Shown piece after piece: positions 23,427-33,361 of a stretch of 64,000 bases of DNA (its first letter is position 1; every line of letters starts with the position of its first letter). The DNA comes from a virus, in the IMG/VR virus record IMGVR_UViG_3300025466_000012, positions 135,684 through 199,683 of that record; one strand, given 5' to 3'. Under the pieces are notes generated by a model. It had not been told where the DNA came from. It searched no databases and was given only the letters and a program-made list of their open reading frames with translations. Made by a program: the position numbers and the translations under genes.

Positions 23427-23656
23427 AATTTCATGAAACAAAAATGCGTAGCCTGGTCAAAGGCATCTGTTGGAAAATCATTGGCGGTATTATCACCGCC
23501 TTTATCGTGTACTATTTGGCCACTCTAGGTTACAGCGCGACCAAGACTGCCACCGTGGTATTGGTATGTCAATTCACCATCAACACTGTTGCTTTTTTTG
23601 TGCATGACCGTATCTGGAATAGAATCCAATGGGGTCGGGAGATAAGCCAAGCATGA
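23423..23656 (+). CDS. DUF2061-like small membrane protein
   Basis: ETKMRSLVKGICWKIIG and FFVHDRIWNRIQWG. Confidence 0.7.
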   Translation: MKFHETKMRSLVKGICWKIIGGIITAFIVYYLATLGYSATKTATVVLVCQFTINTVAFFVHDRIWNRIQWGREISQA

Positions 23657-24624
23657 AAAAATTATTGTTGATATTGTTTTTTCCTGTGTTGGCCTTGGCC
23701 TGGGAACCCATAAAACCAGTCACTGTGATCGTGGGCAACACGCCTGGAGCCGGTAACGAAATCGCATTCCGCAAACTGGCCGACATAGTACAACGACACA
23801 ATCCCAAGTTTGTGTATGTGCTACAGAACATGCCTGGCGCCGATTCGGTCATTGCTCAAAATCGATTCTTTGAAGCATCCGCAGATGGTTACACCATCAA
23901 CCTACCCAGCCATATGAGCACCTATGTGACCAATGACATCTGGGAAGCAAAAATAAAGAAATGGGACTATGACGATTTTCTGGATGTCATGACCATGGGC
24001 AAGAGTCCTTTGGTGCTGGTGGCCTGGCCAGACAGTGCAGTACGAACTCCGCAAGATTTTGTACATCTAATTGCCACCACTCGACAACCCATCAATGTGG
24101 CCGTAGGCGGAGGAGCACACAGAACTGCATTTGAATATCTCATGGAACAGGGACATGGCAATCGAGATCTGGTCAAACCAATCAAGTTTAATGGTCCCTT
24201 GCCGGCTGTTTCCAGTGTGGCACAATATGATGGCAAAACCGGTACCGAATTTGGCATCATGCCTATCGCTGTAGCTCGTTCCTTGGTGGATGCTGGACGT
24301 GTGCGGGCCATTGGATTCACTGGCACACGCAAGATGGCGCAATATCCTGCTGTGCCATTGTTGAACACAGTAGCACCTGGCATCAATGTGTATGCGGCTT
24401 GGAGTCTACAATTACCGTTCGCTGCAGGACCCAACATTGAAGAATGGTACGAGCGAGAATTTGGAGCAGCAGCTCGCAGCGCAGAATACCAAGCCTGGTG
24501 CGAACAAAATGTGGTATTTGTGGAAGAAAATGAACTGCATCCGGCCGGACTGCGACGACACATCAAAGAACTGCGTGCCACATTCTTACCGATCTTGCGC
24601 AAAATTGATTTGGGACGCGAATGA
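23653..24624 (+). CDS. Tripartite tricarboxylate transporter substrate-binding protein (TctC/Bug)
   Basis: Signal peptide MKKLLLILFFPVLALA, TVIVGNTPGAG, NMPGA, ADGYT, VAVGGG. Confidence 0.85.
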   Translation: MKKLLLILFFPVLALAWEPIKPVTVIVGNTPGAGNEIAFRKLADIVQRHNPKFVYVLQNMPGADSVIAQNRFFEASADGYTINLPSHMSTYVTNDIWEAKIKKWDYDDFLDVMTMGKSPLVLVAWPDSAVRTPQDFVHLIATTRQPINVAVGGGAHRTAFEYLMEQGHGNRDLVKPIKFNGPLPAVSSVAQYDGKTGTEFGIMPIAVARSLVDAGRVRAIGFTGTRKMAQYPAVPLLNTVAPGINVYAAWSLQLPFAAGPNIEEWYEREFGAAARSAEYQAWCEQNVVFVEENELHPAGLRRHIKELRATFLPILRKIDLGRE

Positions 24625-25909: not shown

Positions 25910-26559
25910 AAAAACTACTGATTGTGACTGGGCCGCAAGGATCTGGCAACCATTTTTTCAGTCGTGTGCTCAGCAGGCACCCAGATGTGCAAGGCTGGTC
26001 AGAACTGCTGGACAACTATTGGATACCCAGTGATCAAGAACCCTTCGCTGAATATTGGATCGATCCGTCAAAATTACAGGAAAATCATTTTGACGGAGCC
26101 GACTATCATCTGGCCAATGTAAGCTGTCCATTCTTCTTTGACGGGGTACGACATGTGCCCGATATTTTGGGTGTGGCCCAGCAGGCCAGCAGTTTTGGGG
26201 TGCAGGTTGAAATAGCAATTATTGTACGAGACCAAAATATCAATCAGTTGCAACAGTTGCGAGTACGCAAAGAACATACCACACCCATTGCGCAAAAATA
26301 CTATTATGAGACCCTGTTGCCATCGTTGTTTCCGGTACACTTCCTGGATCACGAAGCGTTCTTTTTGCACACCACACACTATCTCAAATGGGTCAGTCAT
26401 GTATTAAAATTTCCTATCGCCTGGTCCGATCCTGACATCATGCAGTTTATCAGTGAAGATGCCAACCACAAATATGTGCGATCCATTGATTCACACTGGT
26501 TGGATGAAGTGATACTGGCCGGTTGTCAGCCCAACCGAGGGCAAAGACTACGTGACTAA
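25906..26559 (+). CDS. P-loop/sulfotransferase-like protein
   Basis: LLIVTGPQGSGNH and IIVRD motifs. Confidence 0.55.
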   Translation: MKKLLIVTGPQGSGNHFFSRVLSRHPDVQGWSELLDNYWIPSDQEPFAEYWIDPSKLQENHFDGADYHLANVSCPFFFDGVRHVPDILGVAQQASSFGVQVEIAIIVRDQNINQLQQLRVRKEHTTPIAQKYYYETLLPSLFPVHFLDHEAFFLHTTHYLKWVSHVLKFPIAWSDPDIMQFISEDANHKYVRSIDSHWLDEVILAGCQPNRGQRLRD

Positions 26560-26980
26560 ACGCATATTGATCATGGGTCTGCCCGGGGCCGGCAAAACTA
26601 CCTTGGCCGAAAGTCTTCAAGAATGTTTATGGTATGAAGGACGCACCGTGAGTTGGTTCAATGCTGATCTAGTGCGTCAACAGCACAACGATTGGGATTT
26701 TAGTACAGCAGGACGGATCAGACAAAGCCAACGCATGCAACAGTGTGCTGCAAACGCTACCACGGACTACGTGATCTGTGATTTTGTGGCTGCGTTGCCC
26801 GAGCAACGAGACCTGTTTGATGCCGACTGGGTTGTGTGGGTAGATACTGTATCCCAAGGACGCTATGCAGATACCAACCGGGACTTTGTGGATCCTGATC
26901 ATTATGATTTTAGGGTGACCGAACAAGACAGCCAACGCTGGGCAGAAATAATAGCGTATAAAATTGTAACAGCAACCTGA
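26552..26980 (+). CDS. cysC: Adenylyl-sulfate (APS) kinase-like protein
   Basis: GLPGAGKTTLA, WFNADLVR, DWDFS..GR.RQ, ICDFVA; shorter than typical CysC. Confidence 0.78.
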   Translation: MTKRILIMGLPGAGKTTLAESLQECLWYEGRTVSWFNADLVRQQHNDWDFSTAGRIRQSQRMQQCAANATTDYVICDFVAALPEQRDLFDADWVVWVDTVSQGRYADTNRDFVDPDHYDFRVTEQDSQRWAEIIAYKIVTAT

Positions 26981-27010: not shown

Positions 27011-27622
27011 ATGCAAATCAGATCAGAACAGCTGGCCCTAATGTTGCCAGGAAATCAATATGTAGACTCTTGGTGCGATGCCTTGAACAAGATCCTGCCC
27101 GATTACGATATCACCACAGCTCAGCGCATGGCTGCTTTCATAGCACAAACAGCACACGAAAGCGCCGGCTACAGTGCCTTGCACGAGAATCTGAACTATC
27201 AGGCTGCAAGCCTGTGCAGAGTCTGGCCACACCTGTTCAATGAAAGCAATGCCAATGATTATGCACATCAACCCGAGCGCATAGCCAACAGAGCCTATGC
27301 CAACCGAATGGGCAACGGTCCAGAAGAATCAGGCGATGGTTGGCGCTACTGCGGACGTGGTCTTGTGCAATTGACTGGTCATGACAACTATCAAGCGTTT
27401 GCCGACAGCATACAGACTGATATTGCCACCATTGCTGATTACCTGCAGACCTTCGAAGGTGCTGTACAAAGCGCCTGCTGGTTCTGGGAAAACAACAATC
27501 TCAACGCAGTGGCCGACACCGGTGACATGGCTCACATGACTCGAATCATCAACGGTGGGGAGCTGGGGCTGGCTGAACGCACTGCCAGATACAATCATGC
27601 CTTGCAAGTACTGACTTCATAA
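27011..27622 (+). CDS. Glycoside hydrolase family 19 endolysin
   Basis: AAFIAQTAHES, ENLNY, GRGLVQLTG.DNY, ACWFW, IINGG. Confidence 0.9.
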   Translation: MQIRSEQLALMLPGNQYVDSWCDALNKILPDYDITTAQRMAAFIAQTAHESAGYSALHENLNYQAASLCRVWPHLFNESNANDYAHQPERIANRAYANRMGNGPEESGDGWRYCGRGLVQLTGHDNYQAFADSIQTDIATIADYLQTFEGAVQSACWFWENNNLNAVADTGDMAHMTRIINGGELGLAERTARYNHALQVLTS

Positions 27623-28086
27623 TGTTTGAACTCATAATCAACCATGTGGTAGGACGAATTCCAGACTGGACCTGGCCTTTTGCAGCCGGCGGCGGAATGG
27701 CTGCTTATTTTGTGTTTGGCATTATGAATCACTTTCCACAGCTCAAATGGTATGTGCTGGTTGGTCGACCTGTGTCATTCACAGTGTTTGTGTTGGGTGT
27801 GTTTTTTTATGGCAGCGCTGGAGTACTGACTCTGCAACAGCAGGCGTTACAAGAAGCCAACCAGCGTGTGGAATTGGCCCGACAGGCCAGTATCAGTGCC
27901 AATGTAGAACTACAGACCGTGATGGCCGGTCAAACGCACTTGATCAAGGGGCGCAGCTATGGAGTGCGGCAACAGATCATACATGATCAGGTAGTAATTG
28001 ATCGTGACTGTAACAGAATCAATGACACAGCCTGGACCGATTACAATCGAGCAGTAAAAAATCAAGGTGAGGCAACACCTCGATGA
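27622..28086 (+). CDS. Membrane protein with coiled coil, i-spanin-like
   Basis: N-terminal TM segments then a helical region; lies between endolysin and a lipoprotein gene. Confidence 0.55.
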   Translation: MFELIINHVVGRIPDWTWPFAAGGGMAAYFVFGIMNHFPQLKWYVLVGRPVSFTVFVLGVFFYGSAGVLTLQQQALQEANQRVELARQASISANVELQTVMAGQTHLIKGRSYGVRQQIIHDQVVIDRDCNRINDTAWTDYNRAVKNQGEATPR

Positions 28087-28352
28087 AACTACTTGTACCT
28101 GTATTGGTGTTGTTGCTGTCAGCCTGTGCTACTAAAACAGCACCTGTGATTCCACAGTGGCCCACTGTTCCTGCAGATCTCACAGCACCAGCCGTGGATC
28201 TCGTGCCCTTGACCGAGGATCAACACAGTCTCAGTGATCTCATACAGAACTCCAATCAAAACTATACTCAGTATTATATCTTGAAGGAAAAATATCAAGG
28301 CTGGCAAAACTGGTACAATAACCAACAAAAAATATGGCAGGGACTACAATGA
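28083..28352 (+). CDS. Lipoprotein, o-spanin-like
   Basis: Lipobox LLSAC followed by a Pro-rich segment. Confidence 0.65.
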   Translation: MKLLVPVLVLLLSACATKTAPVIPQWPTVPADLTAPAVDLVPLTEDQHSLSDLIQNSNQNYTQYYILKEKYQGWQNWYNNQQKIWQGLQ

Positions 28353-28747
28353 AACTATTCACAATTTTGTTTGCGTTGTTGTCCGGTTGCGCGGCCTATG
28401 ATGCTGTGGTCATGACCAGATTTGATGCCAACGAATATCAGATGATTACCAAGATACGAGTCGATTCATCGCATTTTAAAAATTCGTGTGATGATCCAAC
28501 TGCCAGTCGTGCCAATGCAACAACGCTGGCACAGGAAACCGAGCTGTTTGCAGCCTACAGCGAACATTTACCACACAACGGTGACGGCTATCGTGCTGCA
28601 CAGGAACTGGATGCCATGGCCCAGGGCCTGGGCAAGCAGTACCAGACCAGTAGCACAGTCAGCACGTTGTTTTGTAAATTGAAGTTTGAAGGAGTTGAAC
28701 ACAGTGCCAACACCATACAACATGTACTAGGAAAGAGACCGAGATGA
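28349..28747 (+). CDS. Second lipoprotein
   Basis: MKLFTILFALLSGC lipobox; ATGA overlap. Confidence 0.65.
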   Translation: MKLFTILFALLSGCAAYDAVVMTRFDANEYQMITKIRVDSSHFKNSCDDPTASRANATTLAQETELFAAYSEHLPHNGDGYRAAQELDAMAQGLGKQYQTSSTVSTLFCKLKFEGVEHSANTIQHVLGKRPR

Positions 28748-29017: not shown

Positions 29018-29449
29018 ATGGGATTTGTAAAACGCATAGAACAAGCAGTGGCCGATCGGCTCAAGGCAACATTTTTGGATTCAAAAAAAATCGTGGATCT
29101 GATCGAAGACGAAATCAAACAGCTAGAAGACAAATTGGCAGATGCACACAGCCGTGCAGCAGCATCCGCGGCCACAGCCAGAGACCATGCTATCGCGGCT
29201 GCTGCCCATGCCAAAGAATATGCCGACCAATTGGCACAAGAAGTGATCAACGCCGCTGATCGTGCCGACAAACACCTGGCCAATGTTGCATCACAGATTC
29301 AACCCACAGTTGATGTTCCAGTTGCTACCACAGTTGATGTTCCAGTTGCTACCACAGTTGATGTTCCAGTTGCTACCACAGTTGATGTTCCAGTTGCTAC
29401 CACAATTGATGTTCCAGCCGACACTCAGGTTACTAACACAGTTACATGA
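29018..29449 (+). CDS. Ala-rich hypothetical protein with C-terminal TVDVPVAT repeats
   Basis: 143-aa ORF, SD AGGA. Confidence 0.7.
   Translation: MGFVKRIEQAVADRLKATFLDSKKIVDLIEDEIKQLEDKLADAHSRAAASAATARDHAIAAAAHAKEYADQLAQEVINAADRADKHLANVASQIQPTVDVPVATTVDVPVATTVDVPVATTVDVPVATTIDVPADTQVTNTVT
29304..29417 (+). repeat. 24-nt coding tandem repeat
   Basis: ccacagttgatgttccagttgcta x4 perfect plus an 18-nt partial copy. Confidence 0.92.
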
Positions 29450-29461
29450 AAGACAGCCGAG

Positions 29462-30055
29462 ATGACTAGTGGACATCGCAAAAAAGACGAACATTGGTTA
29501 AACAGCAAATGGCGACCCATGATGGGTTGGATGTATATGTTTGTGTGTTTTTTTGATTTTGTACTAGCACCTGTATTATGGAGCTTGGTACAGGCTCTGG
29601 AACATGGGTCGGTACAGGTCCAATGGCAACCGTTGACTCTGCAAGGAGCTGGCCTGTTCCACGTGGCCATGGGTGCCGTGATTGGTATCAGCGCATACGG
29701 TCGCACACAAGAAAAAATGACCGGCTCTAACAACGGTGGTCCATTGAATGGATTCGCACCTGGATCAGGAACTACCTATATTCCACCAGGTGGACAGAAC
29801 ACTGTGTCAGTTAGCAATCAGCCCACATTTGGATCCACAACCTCTGGCAATTTTGGTTCCAGCACACAGCCTGCATTTGGTCAACCCAGCACACCCGCAC
29901 CATTTGGTCAACCCAGCACACCCGCACCATTTGGTGCACCACCGGCATTTGGTGCATCATCGGCCGCAACCGCTCCGCCCGCATTCGGTGCCGCACCACC
30001 AGCATTTGGTGCCAAACCAAGTGGACCTCCGGCTGCATCAATGCCAGCAATTTGA
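29462..30055 (+). CDS. Holin (3TM GTA-holin-like) with FG-repeat C-terminal tail
   Basis: WLNSKWRPMMGWMY, WQPLTL.GAGLFH.AMGAVIG..AYGRT.EK, then a low-complexity tail. Confidence 0.8.
   Translation: MTSGHRKKDEHWLNSKWRPMMGWMYMFVCFFDFVLAPVLWSLVQALEHGSVQVQWQPLTLQGAGLFHVAMGAVIGISAYGRTQEKMTGSNNGGPLNGFAPGSGTTYIPPGGQNTVSVSNQPTFGSTTSGNFGSSTQPAFGQPSTPAPFGQPSTPAPFGAPPAFGASSAATAPPAFGAAPPAFGAKPSGPPAASMPAI
29874..29935 (+). repeat. 27-nt coding tandem repeat
   Basis: catttggtcaacccagcacacccgcac x2 plus catttggt; encodes FGQPSTPAP. Confidence 0.9.
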
Positions 30056-30067
30056 CAAGGAACTGAC

Positions 30068-30244
30068 ATGAAAAAATTATTGATAGTGACCACTGCTATT
30101 TTTGCCATAACTCTGGCACAGGCCACAGAAACCAAAACTGTATGCCATGATCGCACCGACAAACATGGCGTGACCAAACAGGTCTGTAAAAAAATCAAAG
30201 TGCATGCCAAGTTTGATGGCACTCCGGTTCCGACCAAAAAATAA
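30068..30244 (+). CDS. Small secreted protein (58 aa, not in ORF track)
   Basis: [19 protein letters not shown] signal peptide then TETKTVC...QVCKKIKVH; SD AAGGA. Confidence 0.65.
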
Positions 30245-30279: not shown

Positions 30280-31032
30280 ATGACCGACCATTATCAAACT
30301 CTGGGCGTAGATCGATCGGCCACTGCTGACGAAATCAAACAGGCCTATCGACGCTTGGCCAGCCAACACCATCCTGACAAGGGTGGTGATACGGCTCGAT
30401 TCCAACAGATACAGGCTGCCTACGATGTGATTGGCAATGCCGAACAACGCTCGAGATACGATGCTCCTGCTGCCGGATTTGGCACACAAACACCGTTTGA
30501 TTTTGATAACATATTCAACATGTTTGGTGCCAGATTCCAACAAAATACACGTCAACAACACATGCGCATGTCCTTGTGGGTGACCTTGAACGACGTGGCA
30601 CGTGGAGGCACCAGACCAGTCAGCCTGGGTGCTATGACCGTAGAGCTAGAAATACCTCTGGGCATCAACGATGGCGACAATGTGCAGTACAACAATCTAG
30701 GCTACGAAGGTCTCAACCTTGTGGTCAACTATCGCATACACCCGCATCCGCGATGGCAAAGACAAGGTCTCAATCTTTCGCAAGAAGAAACAGTTTCTAT
30801 ATGGGATCTAATATTGGGCGGGGAAATCATAGTGCGAGATATCTTGGGCAACGATCTTAGCCTGACTGTGCCTCCACGCACGCAACCTGGAACCCAATTG
30901 CGACTGCGCAGCCGCGGACTTAGAGATCGTTCCGGAGCACAAGGAGATCTTATAGTGCGCATACAGGCACAGGTGCCCACTGACATCAGTCCGGAGTTAT
31001 TGGCTCAGATTGCCCAAACCCGAGCCAGATAA
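30280..31032 (+). CDS. dnaJ: DnaJ/CbpA-like co-chaperone without zinc finger
   Basis: J domain with HPD motif (QHHPDKGGD), C-terminal [16 protein letters not shown]. Confidence 0.88.
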
Positions 31033-31044
31033 ATACCTGATAGA

Positions 31045-31073
31045 TTGCATCTGCTGTGGAATTAGTGTATACT
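31045..31073 (+). promoter_or_regulatory. sigma70-type promoter for clpA
   Basis: TTGCAT (31045-31050), 17 nt, TATACT (31068-31073). Confidence 0.5.
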
Positions 31074-31102
31074 GGTACATAATCAAACAATCACGGAACA
31101 AC

Positions 31103-33361
31103 ATGCAAAACAATCCTGAAATAGAACAACTGATCGAACAAGCAGTAGAACTGGCACAAGAATTCAAACACGAATATGTGCTGACCGAACATGTGTTGTT
31201 GGCTCTGATCAGGCACAAGCCATTCCGCCAGACTCTGGAAAAATTTGGAGTGGATATCGACATGTTTGATCAAGAACTCATGGCCTATCTGGCCGGTTTG
31301 GTCAACTTGGTCACCAGCAGTGATCAGGCACCCAAGAAGACCAACGGTCTTGAACGCTGTTTCAATCGCGCTTTGACCCAGGTGTTGTTCACAGGACGCC
31401 GCAGCGTGACCACGGTAGATCTTTACTTGGCCATGATGGCCGAGACCAACAGCCACTCACACTATTTCTTGCTCAAGTACGGAGTCAAGAAAAACGAATT
31501 TGTTGAATTTTGGCAAACCAATTACAGTCAGGAACCGGTCACATTTACGGACAAGCAGGCCGACGAAATATTGAACGAACACTGTACCAATCTCAGTGCA
31601 TTGTCTGCAGAAGGCCGCCTGGAACCCATGATCGGTCGTGCGGAAGAACTCAAAGACATGATCACAGTGCTGGCCAGAAAGTTCAAGGCCAATGTGCTCA
31701 TGATAGGTGATCCTGGTGTGGGCAAGACCGCCATCATAGAAGGACTGGCACAAGAAATACAGGCCAAACGTGTGCCCGAATTCCTTCAAGATCACGAAGT
31801 GTACAGCCTGGAAATTGGCAGTCTTTTGGCCGGCAGCAAGTATCGCGGTGAGTTTGAAGAAAAATTCAAGAACGTGATAGCGGCTCTAGAAAGCAAAAAA
31901 CGCTGTGTGTTGTTTATAGATGAAGCTCATACCATGAAAGGTGCCGGCAGCTCCAGCAACAGTACCTTGGACTTTGCCAACATGCTAAAACCGGCTATAA
32001 CCAAAGGTAATATCAAGGTTGTGGCCTGTACCACCTGGGAAGAATATTATGAAAGTTTTGAAAAAGATCGAGCTCTCATGCGTAGATTCCACAAGGTCAC
32101 AGTGGACGAACCTGACGCCGAAACCACAGAGAAAATCCTGATCGGGATCAGTTCCAGACTGGAGCAGTTCCACAATGTGGAAATCGAATCCGAGGCCATC
32201 AAGTCGGCCGTGGACCTGGGCAACAGATACATACATGACAGAAAAAATCCCGACAAGAGCATCGACCTGCTAGATGGTGCCTGCGCCCGCGAGCGAGTAA
32301 AGGATCAAGGTCTAGTCTCTATTACCACCGACATGATCATGGCACAACTGAGCCGTGTCACTGATGTGCCAGTGGACCGACTACAGAACGAACGCAGTGT
32401 CAAGATCCGGGATCTGGAAAGCAACGTCAAGCAACACATTTACGGACAAGATACTGCTGTGGATGCTGTGCTGGAACGAGTGTATATCAGCTTCAGCGGA
32501 TTGGGCAATGGCAAACGACCCATGGCCAGTTTCCTGTTCTTGGGCCCAACTGGTACCGGCAAAACTGAACTGGCCAAACTGTTGGCAACCAATCTGGACA
32601 TGAAACTGCTCAAGTATGACATGAGCGAATATCAGGAAAAACACACAGTGTCCAGCCTGATTGGCGCTCCTCCGGGCTATGTGGGCTTTGAGGATGGCAA
32701 CGTGGGCGGTGGCAAGCTGATCAGTGATCTCAGCAAGAATCCATTCAGCATCATACTGTTTGACGAAATCGAAAAGGCACACCCAGACGTGATCAACATC
32801 ATGTTGCAGATGCTGGACGAGGCCCGTATCACCAGCTCCAATGGCAAAACAGTCAATCTCAAAAACACCATCATAATCATGACCAGCAATCTGGGTGCTG
32901 CTGACAACGAGCGCAACACCATTGGCTTCAGCGACAGCCTGGAACGGTCGGGCGAGGAAGATCGTGCCATGAAAGACTTTTTCAAGCCCGAACTACGCAA
33001 CAGGATCGATCGTGTGTGCAAATTTGTCAAGCTGGATACCTTGGCTGTGAAAAAAATCGTGGTCAAGTTCCTGGATGAACTACAGACCAGTCTGACCGAA
33101 CGCGGCATCAGACTCACAGTAAGTGAACCCGTGATCGACATGCTGGCCGAAAAAGGTTATGACAAAAAGATGGGCGCCAGACCGCTGGGACGCAAGATCG
33201 ACGAATTGATCCGTGTGCCCTTGAGCCGACGTATCTTGTTTGATGGCCTTGAAAACTGCAATTTACAGGCTGTGATGGATGGCGATCAAATACAATTTGT
33301 ACTGGCAGACAGCGTGCAGGCCACAGTAGATCAAGACGGAATTATCAAGATTGGCAACTGA
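31103..33361 (+). CDS. clpA: ATP-dependent Clp protease ATP-binding subunit ClpA
   Basis: Two AAA+ modules (GDPGVGKT and GPTGTGKT), no coiled-coil M domain, ClpP-docking IGF loop. Confidence 0.92.
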   Translation: MQNNPEIEQLIEQAVELAQEFKHEYVLTEHVLLALIRHKPFRQTLEKFGVDIDMFDQELMAYLAGLVNLVTSSDQAPKKTNGLERCFNRALTQVLFTGRRSVTTVDLYLAMMAETNSHSHYFLLKYGVKKNEFVEFWQTNYSQEPVTFTDKQADEILNEHCTNLSALSAEGRLEPMIGRAEELKDMITVLARKFKANVLMIGDPGVGKTAIIEGLAQEIQAKRVPEFLQDHEVYSLEIGSLLAGSKYRGEFEEKFKNVIAALESKKRCVLFIDEAHTMKGAGSSSNSTLDFANMLKPAITKGNIKVVACTTWEEYYESFEKDRALMRRFHKVTVDEPDAETTEKILIGISSRLEQFHNVEIESEAIKSAVDLGNRYIHDRKNPDKSIDLLDGACARERVKDQGLVSITTDMIMAQLSRVTDVPVDRLQNERSVKIRDLESNVKQHIYGQDTAVDAVLERVYISFSGLGNGKRPMASFLFLGPTGTGKTELAKLLATNLDMKLLKYDMSEYQEKHTVSSLIGAPPGYVGFEDGNVGGGKLISDLSKNPFSIILFDEIEKAHPDVINIMLQMLDEARITSSNGKTVNLKNTIIIMTSNLGAADNERNTIGFSDSLERSGEEDRAMKDFFKPELRNRIDRVCKFVKLDTLAVKKIVVKFLDELQTSLTERGIRLTVSEPVIDMLAEKGYDKKMGARPLGRKIDELIRVPLSRRILFDGLENCNLQAVMDGDQIQFVLADSVQATVDQDGIIKIGN

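What the first reader, a model, noticed from the sequence alone, without database searches (positions are those of the whole stretch)
29819..30010. Holin with a nucleoporin-like FG-repeat tail
Seen: after the TM region, 64 consecutive residues contain 8 regularly spaced FG dipeptides (PTFG, GNFG, PAFG, APFG, APFG, PAFG, PAFG, PAFG) in uncharged P/A/S/T/Q spacers. Part of this arose by a 27-nt tandem duplication. Established: FG-nucleoporins use uncharged disordered spacers with FG motifs to self-associate and gate pores. Inference: the tail may drive holin raft condensation and so set lysis timing, or form a selective mesh in the lesion. I know of no described holin with such a tail.
Basis: partly seen in the sequence, partly recalled or inferred. 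Interest (0 to 1): 0.7.

Follow-up and report, generated by a model that had tools for sequence, protein, structure and literature searches.

The report
Phage holin-family protein with FG-repeat tail
A large uncultured phage encodes a small two-helix membrane protein of a known holin (lysis-timing) family that carries a real, charge-free, disordered tail studded with Phe-Gly repeats; the tail recurs in thousands of relatives and even at the opposite end of the protein, but what it does is untested.

Summary
ORF 29462-30055 (+, 197 aa) has eight FG dipeptides in residues 120-183, one charged residue in its last 112, and an exact 27-nt tandem duplication.

It is a member of a very large family of uncultured large phages. 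All share a strongly conserved two-helix membrane hairpin (PF11351 / PHROG 3427 'holin'; the window's own Pfam score is borderline) plus an uncharged, low-complexity extension.

New here:
- FG is enriched 3-4 fold over shuffles across the family, but about a quarter of tails have none.
- In a sister clade the extension sits at the N-terminus and is also FG-rich, with no third membrane helix. Both ends therefore lie on the same side of the membrane, probably the cytoplasm.
- The window's clade ends in a conserved C-terminal peptide whose presence goes with an adjacent GH19 endolysin/spanin module.
- Both clades keep a DnaJ-like and a ClpA-like gene just downstream, and FG-rich tails are commoner there. 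Neither association survives correction for shared ancestry, because there are too few independent contrasts.

Best reading: a holin-family protein with a cytoplasmic, position-swappable disordered module that tunes assembly or docks a partner. A nucleoporin-like mesh in the lesion is unlikely.

The scan has noted this protein type before on other DNA. I found no paper describing it.

The parts
29462..30055 (+). Gene for the 197-aa holin-family protein with the FG tail (stop codon included)
   Evidence: ORF list. PF11351 25.0 bits against cut-off 24.8, residues 10-81 on profile positions 63-122 of 123. phrog_3427 holin E 4.8e-8. 7,825 homologous clusters at E<=1e-3.
29462..29518 (+). Conserved basic N-terminal segment before helix 1 (residues 1-19, ...KKDEHWLNSKWRP); inferred cytoplasmic
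   Evidence: W17, R18 and P19 are invariant in 56 relatives. Across 282 relatives the 20 residues before helix 1 hold a mean of 4.7 K+R, against 0.2 in the inter-helix loop.
29516..29701 (+). Membrane hairpin: helix 1 (about residues 19-43), conserved loop with QWQPLTLQG (about 44-61), helix 2 (about 62-80, Gly/Ala-rich)
   Evidence: AlphaFold2 gives helices 6-46 and 58-90 with pLDDT 78-88 in the core. Two Kyte-Doolittle peaks, 1.97 and 1.57. Invariant W55, P57, G62, G64, H67, G71, G75.
29768..29791 (+). Semi-conserved motif GTTY[IV]PPG, about 20 residues after helix 2
   Evidence: Present in most relatives of the C-tail clade.
29819..30010 (+). FG-repeat array (residues 120-183, 8 FG, no charged residue)
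   Evidence: No secondary structure and pLDDT about 50-56.
29874..29935 (+). Exact 27-nt tandem duplication (2.3 copies) encoding the PFGQPSTPA units
   Evidence: Tandem Repeats Finder, 100% match. Copy number differs among >96% identical relatives.
30011..30052 (+). Conserved C-terminal peptide (residues 184-197, AKPSGPPAASMPAI; family pattern G-K-x-x-P...P-x-[LI] at the free C-terminus)
   Evidence: P195 present in at least 90% of 56 relatives. The pattern is present in 192 of 247 long tails. pLDDT rises to 70-76 over the last ~27 residues.
27011..27622 (+). GH19-type endolysin
   Evidence: phrog_181 endolysin E 8.9e-74. PF00182 E 8.3e-8.
27622..28086 (+). Membrane protein with a C-terminal coiled-coil-like region (i-spanin-like; could also be a second holin candidate)
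   Evidence: Sequence read. No family match. Assigned by position and by its overlap with the next gene.
28083..28352 (+). Small lipoprotein (lipobox LLSAC), o-spanin-like, overlapping the stop of the previous gene
   Evidence: Sequence read. A tblastn relative lies beside the endolysin in 44 of 58 related loci.
30068..30244 (+). 58-aa protein with a signal peptide or anchor and a basic two-Cys mature part, directly downstream; candidate antiholin or partner
   Evidence: Sequence. A relative lies within 1.5 kb downstream in 34 of 59 loci of the C-tail clade, including loci without DnaJ.
30280..31032 (+). DnaJ-like J-protein (HPD motif, short G/F linker, C-terminal domains, no zinc finger)
   Evidence: PF00226 E 3e-20 and PF01556 E 1e-23. 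Best solved relative is Thermus DnaJ2, E 9.5e-30.
31010..33361 (+). ClpA-like double-ring AAA+ unfoldase (no ClpB middle domain)
   Evidence: Colinear with E. coli ClpA in one stretch, E 1.7e-171. ClpB, ClpC and Hsp104 match only in two pieces.

Best explanation
The gene encodes a small inner-membrane protein of the PF11351 holin family in an uncultured large (jumbo) phage. It has three modules. First, a strongly conserved two-helix hairpin that does the membrane work; by family membership and context this is inferred to be hole formation or collapse of the proton motive force at lysis. Second, a charge-free, disordered extension of about 110 residues on the cytoplasmic side, in which Phe-Gly 'stickers' sit 8-9 residues apart in G/P/A/S/T spacers. 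Third, a conserved peptide at the free end of that extension.

I infer that the extension regulates the hairpin rather than forming part of the hole. It would act as a flexible tether with weak self-cohesion, influencing how readily the hairpins cluster, and it would present its terminal peptide to a cytoplasmic partner. Candidate partners are the lysis module next door (the endolysin) or the phage's own DnaJ-like/ClpA-like pair. The array grows and shrinks by replication slippage, which gives the phage lineage a quickly tunable parameter.

Shown here: the anatomy, the conservation, the FG enrichment, the swap between termini and the gene neighbourhoods. Inferred: topology, holin activity, cohesion and any partner.
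For: Family: PF11351 at 25.0 bits (cut-off 24.8) and phrog_3427 holin at E 4.8e-8. Most relatives carry PF11351 in precomputed annotation. An experimentally studied member of this Pfam family is ICP1 TeaA; its ectopic expression was assayed for collapse of the proton motive force and it is the phage's putative holin (PMC7182436). The family's namesake is the R. capsulatus GTA gene rcc00556, a putative holin that lies next to the lysozyme-like gene rcc00555, whose disruption blocks GTA release (PMC3423380).

Context: a GH19 endolysin and a spanin-like pair lie 1.8 kb upstream. In relatives with a C-terminal tail, the endolysin is within 5 kb in 47 of 58 loci; in L003 the order is endolysin, two small genes, then this gene.

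Anatomy: two long helices and a coil tail in AlphaFold2 models of both clades.

Tail under selection: FG occurs 887 times against 262+-14 in shuffles of 247 tails. Taken by clade, the figures are 216 against 63+-7 and 171 against 40+-6. There are 33 different xxFG contexts in each clade, and the spacing is alike (median 9 and 8). Tails have about 1% charged residues outside the terminal peptide.

Position swap: in 67 of 140 distinct relatives the extension is N-terminal and the C-tail is 5 residues long. This split maps as a single change on the tree. No hydrophobic third helix is found.

Cytoplasmic side: K+R counts are 4.7 before helix 1, 0.2 in the loop and 2.3 after helix 2.

Terminal peptide: conserved in 192 of 247 tails. 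Within the C-tail clade it is present in 45 of the 48 loci that have an endolysin nearby, and absent in 7 of the 8 that do not.

Slippage: an exact 27-nt repeat, and a 9-residue length polymorphism among near-identical sequences.
Against: 1. No function was tested.
2. The window's own Pfam score passes the cut-off by only 0.2 bits and covers only the last two of the model's three helices.
3. The hairpin is unusually well conserved for a holin (60-75% identity across hundreds of phages).
4. The classical highly charged holin C-terminus is absent.
5. In the N-extension clade the endolysin is not adjacent (3 of 56 loci). It lies 9-42 kb away in five genomes that are complete or nearly so.
6. The cultured relatives PA5oct, Atu_ph07 and Phosso keep the gene among structural and replication genes. 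The PA5oct protein was detected in virions by mass spectrometry, according to its GenBank annotation.
7. About a quarter of tails have no FG, so FG cannot be needed for the core function.
8. Both neighbourhood associations rest on related phages. Only 2-3 well-supported independent contrasts exist, so the sign tests cannot reach significance.
Confidence: 0.5

Rival explanations
1. The protein is mainly a membrane-anchored client, adaptor or regulator of the phage's own chaperone/unfoldase pair (the DnaJ-like J-protein and the ClpA-like AAA+ unfoldase), not mainly a lysis protein. The Gly/Phe-rich disordered extension, with a conserved peptide at its free end, would be what the J-protein or the ClpA-like ring engages. 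This could hold the protein, extract it or degrade it, for example as a proteolytic timer. This reading can be combined with the holin reading.
For: 1. A DnaJ-like and a ClpA-like gene follow within 3 kb in 47 of 63 loci of the C-tail clade and 53 of 65 of the N-extension clade. In the N-extension clade they are directly adjacent and the endolysin is not.
2. FG-rich extensions (3 or more FG) occur in 64 of 100 loci with DnaJ downstream, against 4 of 29 without.
3. The unfoldase is of ClpA type. Such enzymes engage free, unstructured termini (established knowledge), and here the conserved peptide sits at whichever end is free.
4. Precedents from papers: the MS2 L lysis protein binds host DnaJ strongly (PMC10688784), and DNAJB6 surveils FG-nucleoporin condensates through Phe residues of its own disordered region (bioRxiv 10.1101/2025.10.20.683411).
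Against: 1. Gene order is shared by descent in these related phages. With only 3 well-supported independent contrasts the FG/DnaJ association is not significant.
2. Tails with the terminal peptide persist in loci with no DnaJ within 10 kb, and an extension with only one FG (L076) still has DnaJ next door.
3. 'No DnaJ nearby' does not show that the genome lacks one.
4. No binding evidence of any kind.
Confidence: 0.22
2. The FG repeats have no function of their own. The tail is only a spacer between the hairpin and the terminal peptide, and FG units are what replication slippage happened to amplify.
For: 1. Exact tandem DNA repeats and length polymorphism.
2. FG count ranges from 0 to 10 among close relatives and changes state at least 37 times on the tree.
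3. About a quarter of the tails (51 of 247) have no FG yet keep their length, low charge and terminal peptide, for example L028, L030 and L071.
Against: 1. FG is over-represented 3-4 fold against composition-matched shuffles in two clades whose extensions are at opposite ends and are not alignable.
2. There are 33 different xxFG contexts per clade, so many different units were amplified and all carry FG.
3. 68% of all Phe in the C-terminal tails is followed by Gly.
4. Trp and Tyr in the tails are also often followed by Gly.
Confidence: 0.15
3. It is a virion-associated or ejection-stage membrane protein rather than a lysis protein.
For: The PA5oct homologue (108 aa) is annotated as a structural protein detected by ESI-MS/MS and lies among structural genes. 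The Atu_ph07 and Phosso homologues follow tail-fibre or large unknown genes. The hairpin is conserved more strongly than is usual for holins.
Against: The cultured homologues are only about 34% identical, lack the tail and lack the terminal peptide. Small membrane proteins often contaminate virion preparations (general knowledge). The window's clade sits beside endolysin and spanin-like genes.
Confidence: 0.08
4. One reading: the tails form a nucleoporin-like selective mesh inside the membrane lesion.
For: The composition and spacing resemble cohesive FG domains.
Against: 1. The tail is inferred to be on the cytoplasmic face rather than in the bilayer or periplasm.
2. Many relatives work without FG.
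3. Holes of canonical holins are far wider than a ~110-residue chain could span (established knowledge).
4. Bacteria are not known to have transport receptors that would use such a mesh.
Confidence: 0.03

Closest known systems
PF11351 GTA_holin_3TM family (R. capsulatus GTA putative holin rcc00556; Vibrio phage ICP1 TeaA)
   Same: Sequence match over the two C-terminal helices of the model. Small inner-membrane protein of a phage. Lies near an endolysin in the window's clade. As with TeaA and its antiholin ArrA, a small protein with an N-terminal hydrophobic segment is encoded next to it (gene at 30068-30244).
   Different: Two helices rather than three. Carries a long, uncharged, FG-rich disordered extension and a conserved terminal peptide, which none of the papers I read describes. 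No BLAST-level similarity to ICP1.
Classical holins with a cytoplasmic regulatory C-terminus (lambda S105)
   Same: The end of the protein after the last helix is cytoplasmic and is thought to tune timing rather than form the hole (established knowledge for lambda S; inferred here).
   Different: The lambda-type tail is short and highly charged. This one is about 110 residues with one charge, and in a sister clade it sits at the N-terminus.
Cohesive FG domains of nucleoporins (GLFG/PSFG type)
   Same: Repeated FG in uncharged G/S/T/P/A/N/Q spacers 6-13 residues long, predicted disordered, anchored to a membrane-embedded or scaffold part.
   Different: No homology can be claimed for low-complexity sequence. 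The array is about 60-110 residues rather than hundreds. There are no transport receptors and no pore scaffold. It is probably on the cytoplasmic face of the inner membrane.
Gly/Phe-rich regions of J-domain proteins (DnaJ, CbpA, Sis1, DNAJB6)
   Same: The only common bacterial sequence type with the same Gly/Phe-rich, uncharged, disordered make-up (from my own knowledge). A J-protein with such a linker is encoded 225 bases downstream.
   Different: No J domain. Membrane-anchored. Far more Pro, Ala, Ser and Thr.
SSB-type tails: a disordered linker ending in a conserved C-terminal tip that docks partners
   Same: The architecture: a folded part, an uncharged Gly/Pro/Gln-type linker, and a short conserved peptide at the free C-terminus (comparison from my own knowledge; the terminal peptide is shown).
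   Different: The tip here is Pro-rich and hydrophobic (for example ...PPQPDFPEI, or ...PPAASMPAI in the window), not acidic. No partner is known.

Membership tests
PF11351 GTA_holin_3TM | Score at or above Pfam's gathering cut-off | tested here: met
   25.0 bits against 24.8, only just passing. Residues 10-81 fall on profile positions 63-122 of 123. Most relatives carry PF11351 in precomputed annotation. phrog_3427 holin E 4.8e-8.
PF11351 GTA_holin_3TM | Three transmembrane helices | tested here: not met
   Two long helices in AlphaFold2 models of both clades. Two hydropathy peaks. N-terminal extensions of relatives have a 19-residue hydropathy maximum below 1.2.
Holin (functional class) | Small phage membrane protein with at least one transmembrane helix | tested here: met
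   197 aa; helices 6-46 and 58-90.
Holin (functional class) | Short, highly charged hydrophilic C-terminal domain | tested here: not met
   One charged residue in the last 112.
Holin (functional class) | Encoded with the endolysin and other lysis genes | tested here: inconclusive
   Met in the window (endolysin 1.8 kb upstream) and in 47 of 58 loci of its clade. Not met in the sister clade (3 of 56 loci; endolysin 9-42 kb away) or in cultured relatives.
Holin (functional class) | Timed lethal permeabilisation of the inner membrane that releases or activates the endolysin | not testable with these tools
   Needs expression experiments.
FG nucleoporin (cohesive FG domain) | Many FG motifs in uncharged hydrophilic spacers | tested here: met
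   8 FG in 64 residues with no charge. Family-wide enrichment 887 against 262+-14; median spacing 8-9.
FG nucleoporin (cohesive FG domain) | Intrinsic disorder | tested here: met
   No secondary structure, pLDDT about 50-56. This is a prediction only.
FG nucleoporin (cohesive FG domain) | Part of a nuclear pore scaffold and bound by transport receptors | tested here: not met
   The protein is a two-helix phage membrane protein. No other FG-dense ORF exists in the 200-kb record.
FG nucleoporin (cohesive FG domain) | Self-association into a condensate or gel | not testable with these tools
   Needs in vitro assays.
J-domain protein G/F region | Gly/Phe-rich linker attached to a J domain with an HPD motif | tested here: not met
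   No J domain in this protein. The J domain is in the separate gene at 30280-31032.

The most novel reading that the evidence does not exclude
The FG-rich extension is a genuinely cohesive, condensate-forming module on the cytoplasmic face of the membrane. Its assembly state would be policed by the phage's own J-protein and ClpA-like unfoldase, making this a viral, bacterial-cell counterpart of the FG-nucleoporin/DNAJB6 relationship. Together they would act as a tunable clock for holin triggering.
Probability: 0.1. Interest if true: 0.85.

Novelty: new variant of a known kind. Interest (0 to 1): 0.58.

Why it matters
How holins count time is a long-standing question. Known regulators are short charged tails, dual starts and antiholins. 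Here a very abundant group of environmental large phages attaches a long, charge-free, sticker-and-spacer disordered region with a conserved terminal peptide to a holin-family hairpin. The region can sit at either end of the protein, and its length changes by slippage.

If the region controls clustering or docks a partner, it would be a new and easily evolvable way to set lysis timing. It would also be one of the clearest cases of FG-type low-complexity sequence under selection outside eukaryotes. The constant neighbourhood of a phage J-protein and a ClpA-like unfoldase gives a concrete, testable partner hypothesis.

If the tail proves inert, the finding reduces to a well-documented low-complexity appendage on an ordinary holin.

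Tried and rejected
1. Complex prediction of the hairpin (residues 1-95) against the last 40 residues, to test whether the terminal peptide docks back on the protein's own cytoplasmic face, gave no verdict. I draw nothing from it. In hindsight the single job would have been better spent on the terminal peptide against the endolysin or the DnaJ C-terminal domains.
2. ESM Atlas look-alikes of the tail, with PF11351 excluded: no usable hit.
3. Megablast of 10 kb around the gene against cultured phages: no match. tblastn finds only tail-less or differently tailed hairpins in PA5oct-like phages, Atu_ph07, Phosso and NCTB.
4. A third transmembrane helix in the N-terminal extensions of relatives, as the Pfam name suggests: rejected.
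5. Other FG-dense proteins in the same phage that could be cohesive partners: none in the 199,683 bases held; the record is estimated 58% complete.
6. A simple rule that the tail needs an adjacent DnaJ: rejected. Tails with the terminal peptide occur without DnaJ within 10 kb, and an extension with only one FG (L076) still has DnaJ next door.
7. Independent-pair tests on the tree were underpowered in both cases, because the 85-residue core gives a poorly resolved tree. For FG-richness against DnaJ adjacency there were 3 supported pairs. For the terminal peptide against endolysin adjacency there were 2.
8. Sigma-70 promoter and terminator scans around the cassette gave counts near the shuffled expectation and did not define operons.
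9. The 204-aa gene upstream of the N-clade member P0143 is not the endolysin.
10. Endolysin adjacency was scored by tblastn with the window's GH19 enzyme only, so other endolysin types would be missed.

Full report
**What is there.** The window is the last 64 kb of a 199,683-base IMG/VR virus record estimated 58% complete. Almost all genes are on one strand, and no cultured phage matches at the DNA level. ORF 29462-30055 (+) encodes 197 residues.
The coordinates 29819-30010 are residues 120-183.
- The 112 residues after the second helix hold one charged residue. Eight FG compares with a mean of 1.44 and a maximum of 7 in 20,000 shuffles.
- A 27-nt unit is repeated exactly at 29874-29935.
- Among sequences more than 96% identical, one variant has an extra 9-residue unit.

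**The protein family.** Pfam gives PF11351 (GTA_holin_3TM) at 25.0 bits against a cut-off of 24.8, covering only the last two helices of the model. PHROGs gives family 3427 'holin' at E 4.8e-8.
- A word-indexed search found 7,825 clusters (90% identity) at E<=1e-3, the top 120 at 50-95% identity.
- An exhaustive search with residues 1-100 found 942 clusters at 50% identity.
- The contigs reach 340-525 kb, so these are jumbo phages.
- The core is strikingly constant. W17, R18, P19, D32, P37, W55, P57, G62, G64, H67, G71, G75, R81, E84 and K85 are invariant in 56 diverse members.
- AlphaFold2 with that alignment gives two long helices (6-46 and 58-90) and no secondary structure afterwards. pLDDT is about 50-56 through the FG region and 70-76 over the last ~27 residues.

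**The tail across relatives.** I collected 247 distinct tails of at least 40 residues.
- Composition: G 18%, P 14%, A 11%, S 10%, T 10%, N 8%, F 6%. The median charged fraction is about 1% outside the last 16 residues.
- FG occurs 887 times against 262+-14 in shuffles. 69% of all Phe is followed by Gly.
- FG counts run from 0 (51 tails) to 10.
- The most constant feature is a peptide at the very C-terminus, not FG. The pattern is G-K-x-x-P...P-x-[LI], for example ...GGKKAPPQPDFPEI; in the window it is AKPSGPPAASMPAI. It is present in 192 of 247 tails, and P195 is kept in at least 90% of the alignment.
- A second semi-conserved motif, GTTY[VI]PPG, lies about 20 residues after helix 2.
- More distant cultured relatives have the hairpin only (PA5oct, 108 aa), a short charged tail (Atu_ph07) or a Gln/Tyr/Pro-rich tail (Phosso).

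**A sister clade with the extension at the other end.** Many relatives have only about 5 residues after helix 2 but 60-190 residues before helix 1.
- These N-terminal extensions have no hydrophobic helix. The 19-residue hydropathy maximum is below 1.2, and the AlphaFold2 model of P0143 has two long helices (127-164 and 176-206) plus only two short ones in the extension.
- They are again low-complexity and FG-rich: up to 8 FG, and 171 observed against 40+-6 shuffled. Median FG spacing is 8, against 9 in the C-terminal clade. Each clade has 33 different xxFG contexts.
- They carry their own conserved motifs at the free N-terminus.
- On a tree of 140 distinct hairpins the side of the extension changes once, while FG-richness (3 or more FG) changes at least 37 times.

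I draw two conclusions. First, the two termini must lie on the same side of the membrane. The K+R distribution (4.7 before helix 1, 0.2 in the loop, 2.3 after helix 2) puts that side in the cytoplasm. Second, the extension is a self-contained module whose FG-rich, charge-free character is maintained wherever it is attached. That is hard to explain by slippage alone.

**Neighbourhood.** In the window the gene order is:
- GH19 endolysin, 27011-27622 (phrog_181, E 8.9e-74);
- a membrane plus coiled-coil protein and an overlapping lipoprotein (a spanin-like pair);
- a second lipoprotein and two small genes;
- the FG protein;
- a 58-aa secreted or anchored basic protein;
- a DnaJ-like J-protein with HPD motif, G/F linker and C-terminal domains but no zinc finger;
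- a ClpA-type unfoldase, colinear with E. coli ClpA at E 1.7e-171 and lacking the ClpB middle domain.

I then examined 160 IMG/VR loci, 140 of them with distinct proteins.
- In the C-tail clade the endolysin is within 5 kb upstream in 47 of 58 loci. DnaJ-like and ClpA-like genes are within 3-4 kb downstream in 47 of 59, and the small secreted protein in 34 of 59.
- In one relative the order is endolysin, two small genes, then the FG protein.
- In the N-extension clade, DnaJ-like and ClpA-like genes follow directly in 53 of 65 loci, but the endolysin is adjacent in only 3 of 56.
- In five N-clade genomes that are complete or nearly so, the endolysin lies 9-42 kb upstream, next to fibre-like genes, with no small membrane gene beside it.

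**Two raw associations.**
- FG-rich extensions occur in 64 of 100 loci with DnaJ downstream, against 4 of 29 without.
- Within the C-tail clade the terminal peptide is present in 45 of the 48 loci with an endolysin nearby, and absent in 7 of the 8 without (Fisher p 4e-6).

Both associations are confounded by shared ancestry. Only 3 and 2 well-supported independent contrasts exist, though most go the same way, so neither is established. The second association partly reproduces what an earlier follow-up of this scan reported on other DNA.

**Interpretation.** The holin reading rests on four things:
- family membership;
- ICP1 TeaA, which carries PF11351, is that phage's putative holin, and was assayed for collapse of the proton motive force on ectopic expression (PMC7182436);
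- the GTA gene pair rcc00555/rcc00556 (PMC3423380);
- the lysis-cassette position in the window's clade.

Four things count against it:
- the borderline score;
- the unusual conservation of the hairpin;
- the missing charged C-terminus;
- the contexts of the sister clade and of cultured relatives, including detection of the PA5oct protein in virions.

I put a holin-family lysis protein with a regulatory cytoplasmic extension at about 0.5. The main rival (about 0.2) can be combined with it: the extension may be what the phage's J-protein and ClpA-like unfoldase act on. The precedents are MS2 L, which binds DnaJ (PMC10688784), and DNAJB6, which surveils FG-nucleoporin condensates. A neutral slippage product is unlikely to be the whole story, given FG enrichment in two non-alignable clades. 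It remains possible for this particular array, because many relatives do without FG. A nucleoporin-like mesh in the lesion is unlikely, since the tail lies on the cytoplasmic face.

**Novelty.** Full-text searches for holins with FG repeats, with disordered C-terminal regions, or for nucleoporin-like repeats in phages found nothing relevant. The scan itself has flagged the same protein type in several other genomes, with one follow-up. I class it as a new variant of a known kind.

Noticed in passing
window 29304-29417 (in ORF 29018-29449, +): A 24-nt unit repeated 4.8 times at 98% identity encodes TVDVPVAT five times, at the end of a 143-aa coiled-coil-like protein just upstream of the FG gene. 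A relative of this gene was seen in only one related locus (L002).
   Followed up: partly
window 27622-28086, 28083-28352 and 28334-28747 (+): After the endolysin come a protein with two hydrophobic segments plus a coiled-coil-like tail, an overlapping 89-aa lipoprotein (LLSAC) and a second 137-aa lipoprotein (LSGC). This looks like a spanin-like pair with an extra lipoprotein. The first protein could instead be a second holin candidate. None has a Pfam or PHROG match.
   Followed up: partly
window 30068-30244 (+): A 58-aa protein with a signal peptide or anchor and a very basic two-Cys mature part directly follows the FG gene. It is kept there in 34 of 59 loci of the C-tail clade, including loci without DnaJ, but not in the N-extension clade. 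It is a candidate antiholin or partner, by analogy with ICP1 ArrA next to TeaA.
   Followed up: partly
window 30280-31032 and 31010-33361 (+): The phage encodes its own class-B-like J-protein (HPD motif, short G/F linker with an FDNIF motif, no zinc finger) and a ClpA-type double-ring unfoldase. The pair is conserved across both clades of these jumbo phages. No ClpP or DnaK was looked for.
   Followed up: partly
L004 4983-5507 (Sinorhizobium phage Phosso): The distant homologue has a Gln/Tyr/Pro-rich, prion-like tail instead of FG repeats: an aromatic-sticker tail of another flavour on the same hairpin.
   Followed up: no
L001 5956-6282 (Pseudomonas phage PA5oct): The tail-less 108-aa homologue is annotated as a structural protein detected by ESI-MS/MS and sits among structural genes.
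   Followed up: no
L089 4002-4700: A Bax inhibitor-1 family (PF01027) membrane protein is encoded about 3.3 kb upstream of the N-extension FG protein in that clade.
   Followed up: no
L077 / L161 (296-aa homologue): One relative has a 186-residue N-terminal extension with an acidic region and a Gly/Met/Ser-rich repeat (GMGMGGSMG...) instead of FG, plus a 41-residue C-tail.
   Followed up: no
window 29519-29539: Four Met codons (residues 20, 21, 24, 26) lie at the start of helix 1, and many gene callers start the protein at Met21. A second start that drops the basic N-terminal segment, as in dual-start holins, was not examined.
   Followed up: no
window 23629-24624 and 26552-26980: A TctC/Bug-type periplasmic binding protein (PF03401, E 3e-16) and an APS-kinase-like P-loop protein lie upstream of the lysis genes. 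The same genes precede the endolysin in relative L003.
   Followed up: no
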